Virus record (IMG/VR): IMGVR_UViG_2600254977_000008
Origin: a virus
Taxonomy: Duplodnaviria > Heunggongvirae > Uroviricota > Caudoviricetes
Reading direction: 5' to 3' (one strand)
DNA length: 12,093 bases
Shown piece by piece: positions 2,256-12,093 of the stretch. The position numbers and the translations under genes are program-made. The notes under the pieces were generated by a model, which was given only the letters and a program-made list of their open reading frames with translations, was not told the DNA's origin and did not search any database. The first letter of the stretch is position 1; every line of letters starts with the position of its first letter.

Positions 2256-3876
2256 AACGAACGCCTGTCCTGATTGATGTGAACGGCGTTCCGCTTCGTG
2301 AGAGTCTCAGCTACAACGGGGGCGGTGCAGGATTTGGCGGGCAAATGGCTGAGTGGTTGCCACCGGCGCAGAGTGCCGATGCGGCCCTGCTGCCCGCGTT
2401 GCGTCTGGGGAATGCCCGGGCAGATGATCTGGTGCGCAATAACGGAATAGCGGCTAATGCGGTGGCTCTGCATAAGGATCACATTGTCGGGCATATGTTT
2501 CTGATCAGCTACCGTCCGAACTGGCGCTGGCTGGGGATGCGGGAGACCGCAGCAAAAAGCTTTGTCGATGAGGTGGAGGCGGCCTGGTCGGAATACGCCG
2601 AAGGGATGTTTGGCGAGATCGANNNNNNNNNNNNNNNNNNNNNNNNNNNNNNNNNNNNNNNNNNNNNNNNNNNNNNNNNNNNNNNNNNNNNNNNNNNNNN
2701 NNNNNNNNNNNNNNNNNNNNNNNNNNNNNNNNNNNNNNNNNNNNNNNNNNNNNAACCACGCAGTTATTCCGTACGCGTTTTAAAGCCGTGAGTCCGAAAC
2801 GGGTGGACACGCCTGGACACGGTATGGGGAACCGTTTTCTGCGGGCCGGTGTGGAGGTCGATCGATATGGCCGTGCCGTCGCGTACCATATCTGTGAGGA
2901 TGATTTTCCGTTCTCTGGTAGTGGACGATGGGAACGGATCCCGCGTGAACTTCCCACCGGGCGTCCGGCCATGCTGCATATTTTCGAGCCGGTGGAGGAC
3001 GGGCAGACCCGTGGGGCTAATCAGTTTTACAGCGTCATGGAACGGCTGAAGATGCTCGATTCCCTGCAGGCAACACAGCTTCAGTCGGCCATAGTGAAGG
3101 CGATGTATGCAGCGACGATTGAAAGTGAACTTGATACCGAAAAGGCCTTTGAATATATCGCCGGCGCGCCACAGGAGCAGAAGGATAATCCGCTTATTAA
3201 TATTCTGGAGAAGTTTTCCAGCTGGTATGACACGAATAACGTGACACTGGGCGGTGTCAAAATTCCGCACCTTTTCCCTGGTGATGATCTGAAACTACAG
3301 ACTGCGCAGGATTCAGACAATGGATTTTCTGCGCTTGAACAGGCGCTGCTGCGGTATATCGCCGCCGGTCTTGGCGTTTCCTACGAACAGTTGTCCCGTG
3401 ATTACTCGAAGGTCAGTTACTCAAGTGCCCGCGCCTCCGCCAATGAGTCGTGGCGCTATTTTATGGGGCGGCGAAAATTTATTGCGGCCCGGCTGGCCAC
3501 GCAGATGTTTTCCTGCTGGCTGGAAGAGGCACTTCTTCGGGGGATTATTCGTCCGCCACGGGCACGTTTTGATTTTTATCAGGCGCGATCAGCCTGGTCA
3601 CGGGCAGAGTGGATTGGTGCCGGAAGAATGGCCATTGACGGGCTCAAGGAAGTCCAGGAATCAGTGATGCGCATTGAGGCCGGACTGAGCACGTATGAGA
3701 AAGAGCTGGCGCTGATGGGCGAGGATTATCAGGACATTTTCCGCCAGCAGGTCAGGGAATCTGCTGAGCGGCAAAAAGCCGGACTCTCACGTCCGGTGTG
3801 GATAGAGCAGGCGTATCAGCAGCAGATAGCGGAGAGTCGTAGGCCGGAAGAGGAGACAACACCACGTGAGACGTAA
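2252..3876 (+). CDS. B: Portal protein (lambda gpB-like), interrupted by a 131-nt N-run at 2623-2753
   Basis: ATG at 2252 preceded by GGAGTGAGG, then MKRTPVLIDVNGVPL...YNGGGAGFGGQ...LLPALRLGNARADDLVRNNG matching the lambda gpB N-terminus. After the gap: ...LFRTRFKAVSPKR...IPRELPTGRPAMLHIFEPVEDGQTRGANQFYSVME...LQSAIVKAMYAATIESELDT...LLRYIAAGLGVSYEQLSR...ARSAWSRAEWIGAGRMAIDGLKEVQE...GLSTYEKE, ending at TAA 3874-3876. Segments upstream and downstream of the N-run are in different frames (start positions 2252 versus 2755). Confidence 0.9.
2623..2753. other. Run of 131 N (masked or unsequenced gap) inside the portal gene
   Basis: Counted directly from the sequence. The flanking B-homologous frames are offset by one base relative to a 131-nt gap. 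Confidence 0.99.
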
Positions 3877-8570: not shown

Positions 8571-9323
8571 ATGGCAACACCAAATCCCCTTGAGCCGGTA
8601 AAAGGTGCCGGTACCACTCTGTGGGTTTACAACGGCAAGGGTGATGCTTATGCAAACCCGTTGTCAGACGATGACTGGCAGCGACTGGCTAAGGTGAAGG
8701 ATCTGACGCCGGGCGAGATGACGGCAGAATCCTACGATGATAACTACCTGGATGATGAAGACGCGGACTGGACCGCGACCGGGCAGGGGCAGAAATCTGC
8801 AGGTGATACCAGTTTTACGCTGGCCTGGAAACCGGGAGAGGAAGGCCAGAAAGGGCTTATAGGCTGGTTTGAAAGCGGCGATGTCCGGGCCTATAAAATC
8901 CGTTTTCCGAATGGCACGGTGGATGTGTTTCGTGGCTGGGTCAGCAGTATCGGTAAGGCCGTGACGGCGAAAGAAGTGATCACCCGCACGGTGAAAGTCA
9001 CTAACGTGGGTAAACCTTCTGTAGCGGAAGAACGCAGCAAAATTACGCCGGTCAGTGCGATTAAGGTGACGCCGACATCCGGTACGGTGGCAAAAGGGAA
9101 AACAACCACCCTGACGGTTTCTTTTGAGCCGGAAAGTGCAACCGACAAGACGTTCAGAGCGGTTTCCGCCGATCCGTCGAAAGCCACCATTAGTGTGAAA
9201 GATATGACAATTACGGTAAACGGCGTGGCGACAGGTAAGGTGCAGATCCCTGTGGTGAGCGGAAATGGTCAGTTCGCCGCAGTGGCTGAAGTCACCGTTA
9301 CTGAAGCGGGCGCTGCAGGGTAA
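8571..9323 (+). CDS. V: Major tail tube protein (lambda gpV-like) with C-terminal Ig-like (Big_2-type) domain
   Basis: 250-aa ORF with long runs matching lambda gpV: [109 protein letters not shown]. The C-terminal third ([22 protein letters not shown]...FRAVSAD...ATISV...[32 protein letters not shown]) resembles the dispensable Ig-like domain of gpV. Confidence 0.95.
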
Positions 9324-9336
9324 ACGGAGGTAATAC

Positions 9337-9768
9337 ATGTTTCTGAAAACAGAACAATTTGAATATAACGGTGTGTCTGTCACGCTTTCCGAATTGTCTG
9401 CGCTGCAGCGTATCGAGCATCTTGCCCTCCTGAAACGGCGTGCAGAACAGGCAGAATCCTGCGGCAACCTGCAGGTAAGCGTGGAAGATCTCGTCAGAAC
9501 CGGCGCGTTTCTGGTGGCGATGTCCCTGTGGCATAACCATCCACAGAAAACGCAGTCACCGTCAATGAATGAGGCCGTGATGAAGATAGAGCAGGAAGTG
9601 CTCACCACCTGGCCTGCCGATGCCATTGCCCGGGCGGAAGACGTGGTGTTGTGCCTGTCCGGGATGATCGAAGCTGTTCGTCCGGATACTGATATTACTG
9701 AAGTGGCGAAAAATAACACGCTGACTGATGATGATTTTTCTGCGGGAAAGTCTTCGACGGCGAGCTGA
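9337..9768 (+). CDS. G: Tail assembly chaperone (lambda gpG-like), zero-frame product
   Basis: 143-aa ORF with GGAGG 6 nt upstream of the ATG. Conserved MFLKTE-FE-NGV-VTLSELSALQRIEHLAL-KR-AEQAES, TGAFLVAMSLWHNHPQKTQ-PSMNEAV, IEQEVLTTWP and the C-terminal SAGK-ST-S. TGA at 9766-9768. Confidence 0.95.
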   Translation: MFLKTEQFEYNGVSVTLSELSALQRIEHLALLKRRAEQAESCGNLQVSVEDLVRTGAFLVAMSLWHNHPQKTQSPSMNEAVMKIEQEVLTTWPADAIARAEDVVLCLSGMIEAVRPDTDITEVAKNNTLTDDDFSAGKSSTAS

Positions 9769-10208
9769 ACTTTGCCCTCAGACTGGCGCGTGAGATGGGG
9801 AGACCCGACTGGCGCGCCATGCTTGCCGGGATGACATCCACCGAATATGCCGACTGGCACCGTTTTTACCGCACGCATTATTTTCAGGATACCCAGCTGG
9901 ATATGCATTTTTCCGGGCTGACGTACGCTGTACTCAGCCTGTTTTTTTGCGATCCGGATATGCATCCCTCTGATTTCAGTCTGCTTGTCCCCCGGCATGA
10001 GGAAGAGCAGGTGGAGAGGCCGGATGAGGACAAAATGCTGATGCAGAAAGCGGCAGGACTTGCCGGAGGCGTCCGGTTCGGTGGGGACGGAGGGCGCGAT
10101 ATTTTATCGTCTGCGGATGTGGCGGATGTCATGGTGGATGATGCCGCATTAATGATGGCTTCAGCGGGGATTCCGGGAGGTGTGAGATATGTCCCAGCCG
10201 GTTGGTGA
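9337..10208 (+). CDS. T: Tail assembly chaperone G-T fusion made by programmed -1 ribosomal frameshift at 9744-9750; the T-frame part is 9750-10208
   Basis: Slippery heptamer G GGA AAG (zero-frame phasing) lies 5 codons before the G stop, as in lambda. The -1 frame is open from 9735 to TGA at 10206-10208 and encodes VFDGELNFALRLAREMGRPDWRAMLAGMTSTEYADWHRFY-THYFQD...DMHFSGLTY-VLSLFF-DPDMHP-DFSLL...LMQKAAGLAGGVRFG...AGGVRY, which matches lambda gpT. The ORF-track Met at 9795 is internal to this frame. Confidence 0.85.
9744..9750 (+). promoter_or_regulatory. Programmed -1 ribosomal frameshift slippery heptamer GGGAAAG (G-T frameshift site)
   Basis: The heptamer is phased G GGA AAG in the G frame, identical in sequence and relative position to the lambda G-T site. 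The -1 frame downstream is open and encodes a gpT homolog. Confidence 0.85.
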
Positions 10209-12093
10209 TCTTGTTATTGACCTGAGTCTGGATGCTGTCCGTTTCGATGAGCAGATGAGCCGGGTAAGGCGTCATTTTTCAGGTCTGGATACCGACGCCA
10301 GAAAAACCGCCAGTGCTGTTGAACAGGGCCTGAGCCGCCAGGCGCTGGCTGCACAAAAAGCCGGGATTTCCGTCGGGCAGTATAAAGCGGCCATGCGAAC
10401 CCTGCCCGCACAGTTTACGGATATCGCCACGCAGCTTGCCGGTGGTCAGAATCCCTGGTTGATCCTGCTGCAACAGGGCGGTCAGGTGAAGGACTCCTTC
10501 GGCGGGATGATCCCCATGTTCAGGGGGCTTGCCGGTGCGATCACCCTGCCGATGGTCGGGGTCACCTCGCTGGCGGTGGCGACAGGTGCGCTGGCGTACG
10601 CCTGGTACCAGGGCGACGCCACGCTTTCAGAATTTAATAAAACGCTGGTCCTTTCCGGCAATCAGGCCGGACTGACTGCCGATCGTATGCTGACGCTCTC
10701 AAGAGCCGGGCAGGCAGCAGGGCNNNNNNNNNNNNNNNNNNNNNNNNNNNNNNNNNNNNNNNNNNNNNNNNNNNNNNNNNNNNNNNGTCGCGCGTTTTGC
10801 GTCTGCATCCGGTGTGGAGGTGGATAAAGTCGCTGAAGCCTTCGGGAAGCTGACCACTGACCCGACGTCGGGACTGATGGCGATGGCGCGCCAGTTCCGT
10901 AACGTGACGGCAGAGCAGATTGCGTATGTTGCACAGCTGCAGCGTTCCGGAGACGAGGCCGGGGCATTGCAGGCGGCGAACGATATCGCCACGAAAGGCT
11001 TTGATGAGCAGACCCGTCGCCTGAAAGAAAACATGGGAACACTGGAGACCTGGGCGGATAAAACAGGGAAGGCATTCAAATCGATGTGGGATGCCATTCT
11101 GGATATCGGTCGTCCGGAATCCTCAGCGGATATGCTCGCCAGTGCGCAGAAGGCATTTGATGAGGCGGATAAAAAATGGCAGTGGTACCAGAGCCGGAGC
11201 CAGCGCCGGGGAAAGACCTCCTCTTTTCGTGCGAACCTTCAGGGGGCATGGGATGACCGGGAAAATGCCCGTCTGGGTCTGGCAGCGGCCACGCTGCAGT
11301 CGGATATGGAAAAAGCCGGTGAACTGGCGGCAAGGGACAGGGCTGAGCGTGAGTCGTCACAGCTGAAGTATACCGGAGAGGCGCAGAAGGCGTATGAGCG
11401 CCTGCAGACGCCGCTGGATAAATATACCGCCCGTCAGAAAGAGCTGAATAAGGCCCTGAAAGACGGAAAAATCCTGCAGGCGGATTACAACACGCTGATG
11501 GCGTCGGCAAAAAAGGATTATGAATCGACGCTGAAAAAGCCGTCAGGTGTGAAGGTGTCTGCCGGTGAGCGCCAGGAAGACCGGGCGCATGCAGCCCTGC
11601 TGGCGCTTGAAACCGAGCTCAGGACGCTGGAAAAACACAGCGGTGTGAATGAGAAAATCAGCCAGCAGCGCCGGGATTTATGGGAAGCGGAAAGTCAGTA
11701 TGTGGTCCTGAAAGAGGCCGCCACGAAACGGCAGTTATCTGAGCAGGAAAAATCCCTGCTGGCTCATGAGAAAGAGACGCTGGAGTACAAACGCCAGCTG
11801 GCTGAGCTGGGAGACAAGATTGAACACCAGAAGCGGCTGAATGAGCTGGCACAGCAGGCGGCGCGGTTTGAACAGCAGCAAAGCGCGAAGCAGGCGGCAA
11901 TCAGCGCAAAAGCCCGCGGCCTCACCGACCGTCAGGCGCAGCGGGAGTCGGAAGAGCAGCGCCTTCGTGAGGTGTACGGTGATAATCCGGCTGCGCTGGC
12001 GAAGGCCACATCGGCACTGAAGAACACCTGGTCTGCGGAGGAGCAGCTTCGTGGAAGCTGGATGGCCGGGATGAAGTCCGGCTGGGGAGAGTG
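10189..12093 (+). CDS. H: Tail tape measure protein (lambda gpH-like), 3' partial, interrupted by a 63-nt N-run at 10724-10786
   Basis: ATG at 10189 with GGGAGG 8 nt upstream, overlapping the T-frame stop by 20 nt. N-terminus PVGDLV-DLSLDA-RFDEQM-RVRRHFSG...QALAAQKAGISVGQYKAAMR-LPAQFTD-ATQLAGGQ-PWLILLQQGGQVKDSFGGMIPMFRGLAGAITLPMVG-TSLAVATGALAYAWYQG...FNKTLVLSGNQAGLTADRML-LSRAGQAAG. After the gap (frame shifted by 1): VARF-SASGVEVDKVAEAFGKLTTDPTSGL-AMARQF-NV-AEQIAYVAQLQRSGDEAGALQAAN...RRLKENMGTLETWAD...KSMWDA-LDIGRP ... KALKDGKILQADYNTLMA-AKKDYE-TLKKP...ISQQRRDLW-AESQ...GLTDRQA-RE. It continues past the window end. Confidence 0.9.
10724..10786. other. Run of 63 N (masked or unsequenced gap) inside the tape measure gene
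   Basis: Counted directly from the sequence. The flanking H-homologous frames are offset by one base even though 63 is a multiple of 3. Confidence 0.99.

What the first reader, a model, noticed from the sequence alone, without database searches (positions are those of the whole stretch)
9735..10208. Conserved G-T programmed -1 frameshift (GGGAAAG) producing a gpGT tail assembly chaperone
The lambda slippery heptamer G GGA AAG is present with the same phasing, 5 codons before the G stop. The -1 frame is open from 9735 and encodes a clear gpT homolog with no SD-equipped start of its own. This argues that T is expressed only as a low-frequency G-T fusion, which matters for annotation because standard gene callers emit a truncated T ORF starting at 9795.
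Basis: partly seen in the sequence, partly recalled or inferred. Interest (0 to 1): 0.4.

Follow-up and report, generated by a model that had tools for sequence, protein, structure and literature searches.

The report
Lambda-type G-T tail chaperone frameshift
This is the well-known phage lambda trick in which a few percent of ribosomes slip back one base at GGGAAAG near the end of tail gene G to make a G-T fusion protein, found here in a common E. coli prophage; it is ordinary biology, though genome annotation still gets it wrong.

Summary
Gene G (9337-9768, + strand) carries GGGAAAG at 9744-9750 phased G GGA AAG, followed by five sense codons and TGA. The -1 frame is open from 9735 to 10208 and encodes an equivalog-level gpT homolog.

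The predicted fusion has 290 aa, with the junction ...SAGK|VFDGELNF....

In 350 related loci, 348 carry an in-phase slippery heptamer at exactly the same place. Most are GGAAAAG or GGGAAAG.

T-frame coding constraint begins at the slip site, not at an ATG:
- The ATG at 9795 has no usable Shine-Dalgarno sequence.
- That Met is Phe or Leu in 34 of 39 representative relatives.

RefSeq does annotate T as the truncated ORF 9795-10208. The exact fusion protein is absent from a collection of about 15 billion proteins.

The window is 99.6% identical to a prophage of UTI89-like E. coli.

The mechanism is the textbook lambda G-T -1 programmed frameshift, so the feature is already known and of low interest.

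The one modest extra is a predicted nested stem-loop at 9758-9828, starting 7 nt after the heptamer. It folds better than synonymous recodings (z about -2.2). Covariation support is inconclusive, so it remains only a candidate 3' stimulator.

The parts
9326..9330 (+). Shine-Dalgarno GGAGG of gene G
   Evidence: Sequence. The anti-SD duplex is -10.8 kcal/mol, and the pairing stretch ends 4 nt before the ATG.
9337..9768 (+). Gene G, tail assembly chaperone gpG (143 aa), the zero-frame product
   Evidence: ORF. PF06894 E=5e-51. TIGR01674 equivalog, 166 bits. 71% identical to lambda gpG. RefSeq WP_000479095.1.
9735..9768 (+). 34-nt overlap in which both the G frame and the -1 (T) frame are open; the only place where a -1 shift yields a G-T fusion
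   Evidence: -1 frame stop TGA at 9732-34 and G stop at 9766-68.
9744..9750 (+). Slippery heptamer G GGA AAG (Gly-Lys in both frames)
   Evidence: Same heptamer, phase and distance to the stop as lambda. An in-phase heptamer is at the same position in 348 of 350 relatives.
9750..10208 (+). T segment read in the -1 frame (152 aa plus stop). With 9337-9750 it forms the gpGT fusion CDS join(9337..9750,9750..10208), 290 aa
   Evidence: Translation. TIGR01715 equivalog, 212 bits, profile positions 1-110 aligned from residue 5. PF06223. No T-frame stop in 39 of 39 representative relatives, and 3-periodic variation starts before any ATG.
9795..10208 (+). The truncated 'T' ORF emitted by gene callers (137 aa); probably not an independent gene
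   Evidence: RefSeq CDS WP_000533402.1. Anti-SD duplex only -2.3 kcal/mol. This Met is Phe or Leu in 34 of 39 relatives. The ATG lies inside the predicted hairpin.
9758..9828 (+). Candidate 3' stimulatory RNA structure. Outer stem 9758-9765/9821-9828 encloses hairpin 9784-9799/9804-9819. It starts 7 nt after the heptamer.
   Evidence: MFE -38.2 kcal/mol, z=-3.5 against dinucleotide shuffles. z=-2.2 against synonymous recodings. 83% of cells paired in 39 relatives, but the robust covariation measures are not significant. Status: suggestive only.
8571..9323 (+). Context: major tail tube protein V with a C-terminal Ig-like domain, immediately upstream
   Evidence: PF16461 E=2e-69 and PF02368.
10189..12093 (+). 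Context: tape measure protein H. Its start overlaps the end of T by 20 nt, it runs off the window, and it is interrupted by a masked N run at 10724-10786.
   Evidence: PF06791 E=5e-47. RefSeq annotation. N run.

Best explanation
This is the G-T tail assembly chaperone locus of a lambda-like prophage, expressed by programmed -1 ribosomal frameshifting.

Proposed mechanism:
- Ribosomes start at ATG 9337.
- Most read through to TGA 9766-68 and release gpG (143 aa).
- A small fraction, about 4% in lambda, slip back one base when GGA (tRNA-Gly) and AAG (tRNA-Lys, mnm5s2UUU) occupy the P and A sites. The tRNAs re-pair with GGG AAA.
- Those ribosomes continue in the -1 frame from GTC 9750 to TGA 10206-08, making a 290-aa gpGT fusion.

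By analogy with lambda, the G part binds the tape measure protein H, encoded immediately downstream. The T part recruits the major tail protein V, encoded immediately upstream. The fixed G:GT ratio is what tail assembly requires. Neither protein is in the mature virion.

Shown here: the anatomy, the homology, the conservation of the site, and the lack of an independent T start signal.

Inferred from lambda: that the shift actually happens, its frequency, and the protein functions.
For: Anatomy and phase.

Homology:
- G matches TIGR01674 and PF06894; the T frame matches TIGR01715 and PF06223.
- Gene order is V-G-T-H.

Comparison with lambda:
- TTTCTGCGGGAAAGT and the five codons to the stop are conserved, while the preceding 60 nt are diverged with in-frame indels.
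- tblastn of the fusion against 50,697 phage records gave 185 matching records. In all 40 listed, the match is split into 2 pieces in different frames.

Conservation of the site:
- 348 of 350 related loci have an in-phase heptamer at the same position inside the overlap: GGAAAAG 236, GGGAAAG 105, GGGAAAA 3, AAAAAAG 2, GGCAAAG 1, AGAAAAG 1.
- The T frame is stop-free in 39 of 39 representatives. The G frame is stopped in 38 of 39.
- Column entropy by T-frame codon position is 0.55/0.43/1.17 already between the G stop and ATG 9795.

No independent start.

Literature:
- Lambda G-T frameshift at G GGA AAG, about 96% zero frame (PMC3296357).
- A 30:1 ratio, with G binding H and T binding V, conserved across long-tailed phages (PMC5009743).
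- G_GGA_AAG is highly shift-prone in E. coli (PMC5009743, PMC6924986).
- Phage 434 is annotated with the joined GT CDS at the homologous site.
Against: There is no direct evidence of the fusion protein for this sequence. Frameshift efficiency was not measured. The heptamer by itself occurs at chance frequency in the window. The primary papers (Levin 1993; Xu 2004, 2013) could not be read here, so details taken from them rest on reviews and on my memory.
Confidence: 0.94

Rival explanations
1. T is an ordinary separate gene translated from its own start (ATG 9795, as RefSeq annotates, or ATG 9819 as in phage PhiR12_1), and the heptamer is incidental.
For: Gene callers and PGAP annotate it this way. 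An ATG exists at 9795, 9819 and 9831 in the T frame.
Against: - Anti-SD duplex is -2.3 kcal/mol at 9795. The GGAGA near 9819 is 15 nt away. G scores -10.8 and H -11.6.
- Met-9795 is Phe or Leu in 34 of 39 relatives. Annotators pick different starts in different relatives.
- Protein-coding constraint in the T frame, and TIGR01715 positions 1-11, lie upstream of the ATG and run up to the slip site.
- Both ATGs lie inside the predicted stem-loop.
- From memory, in lambda T has no independent expression (Levin 1993).
Confidence: 0.03
2. T is made by termination-reinitiation: ribosomes finishing G at TGA 9766-68 scan 27 nt and restart at ATG 9795, giving free T coupled to G.
For: The short distance between the G stop and ATG 9795. 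Translational coupling is common in phage late operons (general knowledge).
Against: The same points as for the first rival. The ATG is not conserved and conserved T-frame residues precede it. This model would also not explain why an in-phase slippery heptamer is kept at one exact position in 348 of 350 relatives.
Confidence: 0.02
3. The frame change happens at the RNA level: RNA polymerase slips on the A run, deleting or adding a base. It is not a ribosomal event.
For: A few relatives have A6 runs (AAAAAAG in the Stx1 and VT1-Sakai phages), where transcriptional slippage is conceivable.
Against: The window has only A3 flanked by G3, far below the run lengths (about 7 or more) known to give polymerase slippage (PMC5009743, general). 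From memory, lambda with the same heptamer was shown to shift during translation (Levin 1993). tRNA-Lys modification changes the lambda G:GT ratio (PMC3296357).
Confidence: 0.01

Closest known systems
Bacteriophage lambda G / G-T programmed -1 frameshift (Levin, Hendrix & Casjens 1993; Xu, Hendrix & Duda 2013, 2014)
   Same: - Same heptamer G GGA AAG, same phase, same five codons to the TGA stop.
- Same junction peptide apart from flanking residues (SAGK|VFDGEL).
- Same V-G-T-H gene order.
- G is 71% identical and the G-T DNA 87% identical.
   Different: - The C-terminal tail of G just upstream of the site is diverged and 3 aa longer.
- T carries small insertions and a 4-aa longer C-terminus.
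- The first T-frame codon is GTC, not GTG, so it cannot even be annotated as a GTG-started T as in the lambda RefSeq record.
Conserved tail assembly chaperone frameshift of long-tailed dsDNA phages (Xu, Hendrix & Duda 2004)
   Same: Two overlapping ORFs lie between the major tail protein and tape measure genes. The second is in the -1 frame with no start of its own and is joined to the first at a slippery site.
   Different: Nothing essential. This is a close-sequence member of the founding lambda family rather than a remote analog.
N15 / phi80 / mEp237 / cdtI-type G-T sites
   Same: Homologous G and T, with the slip site at the same alignment position.
   Different: They use G GAA AAG, which is not a perfect X XXY YYZ and is described as 'less slippery' (PMC6924986). 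In some clades the G stop follows 0-1 codons after the heptamer instead of 5.
E. coli dnaX -1 frameshift (A AAA AAG with an upstream SD-like element and a downstream stem-loop)
   Same: A lysine A_AAG A-site slip decoded by the single E. coli tRNA-Lys. There may be a stem-loop 5-9 nt downstream.
   Different: There is no SD-like stimulator upstream of the heptamer here (sequence 9724-9743). The shift extends the protein rather than truncating it. Efficiency is about 4% rather than about 50%. The downstream structure is unproven.

Membership tests
Lambda-type gpG/gpGT tail assembly chaperone with programmed -1 frameshift | Upstream ORF is a gpG homolog | tested here: met
   TIGR01674 equivalog, 166.1 bits (cut-off 74.45). 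PF06894, 172 bits. 71% identical to lambda gpG.
Lambda-type gpG/gpGT tail assembly chaperone with programmed -1 frameshift | Downstream ORF, in the -1 frame relative to G, is a gpT homolog | tested here: met
   TIGR01715 equivalog, 212.1 bits (cut-off 77.35). PF06223, 51.6 bits. Frame relation.
Lambda-type gpG/gpGT tail assembly chaperone with programmed -1 frameshift | Locus lies between the major tail protein gene and the tape measure gene | tested here: met
   V (PF16461) is at 8571-9323 and H (PF06791) starts at 10189. RefSeq annotation agrees.
Lambda-type gpG/gpGT tail assembly chaperone with programmed -1 frameshift | In-phase slippery heptamer X XXY YYZ inside the two-frame overlap, with no -1 frame stop between it and the T domain | tested here: met
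   G GGA AAG at 9744-9750. Overlap at 9735-9768. -1 frame open to 10208. Conserved position in 348 of 350 relatives.
Lambda-type gpG/gpGT tail assembly chaperone with programmed -1 frameshift | T has no independent translation start | tested here: met
   Computational only. Anti-SD pairing is weak or misplaced at all three T-frame ATGs. Met-9795 is not conserved, and T-frame coding constraint starts at the slip site.
Lambda-type gpG/gpGT tail assembly chaperone with programmed -1 frameshift | A G-T fusion protein is actually made at a few percent of G | not testable with these tools
   Needs mass spectrometry, a western blot or a reporter assay. Inferred from lambda (PMC3296357, PMC5009743).
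Lambda-type gpG/gpGT tail assembly chaperone with programmed -1 frameshift | Both G and GT are required for tail assembly and absent from virions | not testable with these tools
   Genetic and biochemical property, known for lambda only (PMC5009743).
-1 PRF with a 3' RNA structural stimulator (dnaX / IS911 type) | Stable structure beginning 5-9 nt 3' of the heptamer | tested here: met
   The predicted stem starts at 9758, a 7-nt spacer. MFE -38.2 kcal/mol, z=-3.5. A similar fold is predicted in lambda, Stx1 phage and mEp237. z=-2.2 against synonymous recodings.
-1 PRF with a 3' RNA structural stimulator (dnaX / IS911 type) | Structure supported by compensatory base changes across relatives | tested here: inconclusive
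   - 39 sequences: 83% of cells paired, covariation score 0.137 against 0.079 (0 of 500 shuffles).
- Pairs with a change on both sides: 7 against 5.6 (102 of 500 shuffles). Pair types: 22 against 20.4 (132 of 500 shuffles).
- There is no excess stability in the Providencia-like and L209-like clades.
-1 PRF with a 3' RNA structural stimulator (dnaX / IS911 type) | Upstream SD-like stimulator 6-17 nt 5' of the heptamer | tested here: not met
   9724-9743 reads CTGATGATGATTTTTCTGC, with no GGAG or AGGA-like stretch. The upstream 44 nt are unstructured, z=-0.2.

The most novel reading that the evidence does not exclude
The nested stem-loop at 9758-9828 (7-nt spacer) is a genuine, selected 3' stimulator that tunes G:GT stoichiometry in the lambda, mEp237 and phi80 clades. 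It also buries the spurious T-frame ATGs at 9795 and 9819. Other clades, which use G GAA AAG with the stop codon directly after the heptamer, would achieve the same tuning by other means. As far as I recall, lambda G-T frameshifting is usually described as depending on the heptamer without a defined structural stimulator. I could not read the primary paper to confirm this.
Probability: 0.3. Interest if true: 0.3.

Novelty: already known. Interest (0 to 1): 0.1.

Why it matters
Biologically it adds nothing new. It is the founding example of the conserved tail-chaperone frameshift, sitting in a prophage found in hundreds of complete E. coli genomes.

Its practical value is for annotation:
- RefSeq/PGAP and phage submitters emit a truncated stand-alone 'T' of 137 or 129 aa.
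- The true 290-aa gpGT product of this variant is absent from a collection of about 15 billion proteins.
- The truncated ORF is recorded on at least 1000 contigs, the counting limit.

A simple rule would fix thousands of records. The rule is a gpG homolog, an in-phase [GA]G[GA]AAA[GA]-type heptamer, and a gpT homolog in the -1 frame.

Tried and rejected
1. Rfam scan of the whole window: no family at gathering score.
2. The genome-contig scan for diverse G homologs mostly returned low-coverage lambda DNA contigs in unrelated species, so it gave little diversity. Diversity came instead from phage records and three viral-contig scans seeded with cdtI, Providencia and mEp237 GT fusions.
3. Primary papers (Levin 1993; Xu 2004, 2013) are not held. 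Literature claims rest on PMC5009743, PMC3296357, PMC7618472, PMC6924986 and PMC4066793.
4. I looked for a second in-phase slippery site in the 34-nt overlap and found none.
5. The portal gene looked frameshifted (ORFs 2222-2791 and 2788-3876). This is an artefact of a masked 131-nt N run, not a pseudogene.
6. The 444-aa antisense ORF 8664-9998 has no Pfam hit and is not conserved in lambda. I take it to be a shadow ORF.
7. Upstream structure or an SD-like stimulator: none.
8. L119-L121 looked like in-frame G-T fusions from their tblastn spans. The sequences show the ordinary GGAAAAG site plus other indels. I did not pursue them.

Full report
**1. What is in the sequence**

Gene G
- The + strand carries an ORF from ATG 9337 to TGA 9766-9768 (143 aa).
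- It is preceded by GGAGG at 9326-9330. The anti-SD duplex is -10.8 kcal/mol.

The heptamer
- GGGAAAG lies at 9744-9750.
- G-frame codons start at positions congruent to 1 mod 3. The local reading is therefore GCG GGA AAG TCT TCG ACG GCG AGC TGA.
- The heptamer is phased G GGA AAG and is followed by five sense codons and the stop.

The -1 frame
- It has TGA at 9732-9734 and then stays open from 9735 to TGA 10206-10208.
- A -1 slip on the heptamer gives ...D-F-S-A-G-K | V-F-D-G-E-L-N-F....
- The fusion has 290 aa: 138 from the G frame and 152 from the T frame.

All coordinates and statements in the finding are correct.

**2. Is it more than chance?**

The bare heptamer is not. There are two copies in the window against 2.07 expected. 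The configuration is.
- No other in-phase X XXY YYZ exists in the 34-nt overlap.
- The -1 frame runs 147 codons past the G stop.
- The arrangement is conserved.

I collected 350 related loci. They came from IMG/VR, GTDB genomes and GenBank phages, and G-T protein identity to the window ranged from 100% down to about 35%.
- When the loci are anchored on the invariant DWR motif of T, 348 have an in-phase heptamer at exactly the same place inside the G/-1 overlap.
- The counts are GGAAAAG 236, GGGAAAG 105, GGGAAAA 3, AAAAAAG 2, GGCAAAG 1 and AGAAAAG 1.
- The two exceptions carry indels and look degraded.

In the pairwise alignment with lambda, TTTCTGCGGGAAAGT and the next five codons are conserved. 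The 60 nt just upstream are scrambled and differ by two in-frame indels.

**3. What the two reading frames encode**

- G matches TIGR01674 (phage_lambda_G, equivalog, 166 bits against a cut-off of 74) and PF06894.
- The -1 frame product from 9750 matches TIGR01715 (phage_lam_T, equivalog, 212 bits against a cut-off of 77). Profile position 1 aligns to residue 5 after the junction.
- The ORF starting at ATG 9795 begins only at profile position 12.
- The flanking genes are the lambda-type tail tube protein V (PF16461 plus a Big_2 domain) and the tape measure protein H (PF06791). This gives the canonical V-G-T-H order, confirmed by RefSeq annotation of identical DNA.

**4. Does T have its own start?**

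T-frame start codons between 9735 and 9900 are ATG 9795, 9819 and 9831.

| Start | Best anti-SD pairing |
|---|---|
| ATG 9795 | -2.3 kcal/mol |
| ATG 9819 | GGAGA placed 15 nt away |
| ATG 9831 | -2.2 kcal/mol |
| G (9337) | -10.8 kcal/mol |
| H (10189) | -11.6 kcal/mol |

Evidence from 39 representative relatives (alignment A4):
- The residue at 9795 is Phe or Leu in 34 of them. The only invariant Met is the internal one of RAML.
- Annotators accordingly start 'T' at different, non-homologous places in different phages.
- Column variability between the G stop and ATG 9795 already has the three-base periodicity of T-frame coding. Entropy is 0.55/0.43/1.17 at codon positions 1/2/3, and 0.49/0.25/1.26 further downstream.
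- The T frame is stop-free in 39 of 39. The G frame is closed in 38 of 39.

T-frame coding therefore begins at the slip site, as expected if T is made only as a fusion.

**5. Mechanism**

The best explanation is the lambda mechanism.
- tRNA-Gly and tRNA-Lys slip together from GGA AAG to GGG AAA.
- This yields a few percent gpGT beside gpG.
- G binds the tape measure protein and T recruits the tail tube protein.

The literature available here supports this for lambda:
- About 96% of ribosomes stay in the zero frame, and the ratio is sensitive to tRNA-Lys thiolation (PMC3296357).
- A 30:1 ratio is essential for tail assembly. Neither protein is in virions, and the frameshift is conserved across long-tailed phages (PMC5009743).
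- G_GGA_AAG is highly shift-prone in E. coli (PMC5009743, PMC6924986).

Occurrence and rate for this particular sequence are inferred, not shown.

**6. A possible extra: downstream RNA structure**

The fold
- The 80 nt after the heptamer fold into an outer stem (9758-9765 with 9821-9828) that encloses a hairpin (9784-9799 with 9804-9819).
- The structure starts 7 nt after the heptamer. MFE is -38.2 kcal/mol and z=-3.5 against dinucleotide shuffles.
- Similar folds are predicted for lambda (z=-3.7), Stx1 phage (z=-2.4) and mEp237 (z=-5.5).
- Both spurious T-frame ATGs (9795, 9819) lie inside it.

Control for protein coding
- The region codes for a conserved peptide, so I recoded the T frame synonymously 300 times per sequence.
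- The native sequence is more stable than its recodings in the lambda, mEp237 and phi80 clades. The window gives z=-2.2, lambda -2.2, mEp237 -3.2, and the strongest -3.7.
- It is not more stable in the Providencia-like and L209-like clades. My E. coli-phage codon table probably biases that comparison.

Pair counting
- On 12 sequences the result looked good: 90% of cells paired and 5 pairs with double changes.
- On 39 sequences the two robust measures were not above shuffles. Pairs with a change on both sides were 7 against 5.6 (102 of 500 shuffles reached the observed value). Pair types were 22 against 20.4 (132 of 500).

I rate a real stimulator at about 0.3. Sharma et al. (PMC4066793) report conserved hairpins in 3 of 5 prophage frameshift clusters, so even this may not be new. 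Rfam has nothing here.

**7. Provenance and novelty**

- The G-T stretch is 100% identical to prophages in many complete E. coli genomes, including the type strain ATCC 11775.
- 3648 of 5426 complete genomes carry a match of some kind, and in 854 records the best match is at least 99% identical.
- The whole window is 99.6% identical to a prophage of UTI89, NU14 and UM146.
- The biology is textbook, so I rate it 'already known'.

The annotation remark is valid.
- RefSeq gives G (WP_000479095.1) and a separate T from 9795 (WP_000533402.1) with no joined CDS.
- The exact 290-aa fusion is absent from a collection of about 15 billion proteins. The 137-aa ORF and G are each recorded on at least 1000 contigs, the counting limit.
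- At least one curated record, phage 434, shows the correct joined annotation at the homologous site.

**8. Verdict**

It is an ordinary, already known feature and rates low interest (0.1). The residual novelty is confined to an unproven downstream structure.

Noticed in passing
window 2623-2753 and 10724-10786: Two masked N runs of 131 and 63 nt. The first makes the portal gene look split into two frames (ORFs 2222-2791 and 2788-3876). The second makes the tape measure ORF appear to end at 10827. In ATCC 11775 the portal gene (1593 nt) and the tape measure gene are intact.
   Followed up: yes
L112-L117 and about 236 of 350 related loci (heptamer position equivalent to window 9744-9750): Most relatives use G GAA AAG, which is not a perfect X XXY YYZ because the P-site GAA to GGA re-pairing has a middle mismatch. 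PMC6924986 calls it 'less slippery'. How these phages reach a workable G:GT ratio is not obvious.
   Followed up: partly
L115/L116 (cdtI, mEp460), L117 and L199-L206 (Providencia-like): In these clades the G stop follows the heptamer after 1 or 0 codons (GGAAAAG TCC TGA; GGAAAAG TAG; GGGAAAA TAG), instead of 5 codons as in lambda. A stop codon directly 3' of the shift site might itself act as a stimulator.
   Followed up: no
window 9758-9828 (+): A predicted nested stem-loop starts 7 nt after the heptamer and buries the T-frame ATGs at 9795 and 9819. It is more stable than synonymous recodings (z=-2.2), but covariation is inconclusive.
   Followed up: yes
L086-L098, L100-L102, L104-L107 (genome-contig scan): Lambda G-T sequence turns up on short or roughly 48-kb contigs, most with titles reporting coverage of about 0.7-3x. 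The assemblies are of unrelated organisms such as Kitasatospora, Oceanobacillus, Leeuwenhoekiella, Bradyrhizobium and Enterococcus. This is almost certainly lambda control or ladder DNA contaminating public genome assemblies.
   Followed up: no
window 8664-9998 (- strand): A 444-aa antisense ORF spans V, G and the start of T. It has no Pfam hit and is broken into ORFs of about 120-140 aa in lambda, so it is most likely a shadow ORF of the G+C-rich coding strand.
   Followed up: partly
L103 (Shigella flexneri CP182557.1, locus 1501-1773): The G homolog is cut to 29 aa by a premature stop, with indels downstream. This is a decayed copy of the locus in a cryptic prophage.
   Followed up: no
L001 1216-1650 (lambda NC_001416 10115-10549): The lambda RefSeq record itself annotates T as a stand-alone CDS starting at the GTG formed by the last base of the heptamer, not as a joined G-T CDS. 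In the window that codon is GTC, so even this workaround is unavailable.
   Followed up: yes
window 8571-9323 (+): The major tail protein V carries a C-terminal Big_2 Ig-like domain (residues 161-241), as in lambda gpV.
   Followed up: no
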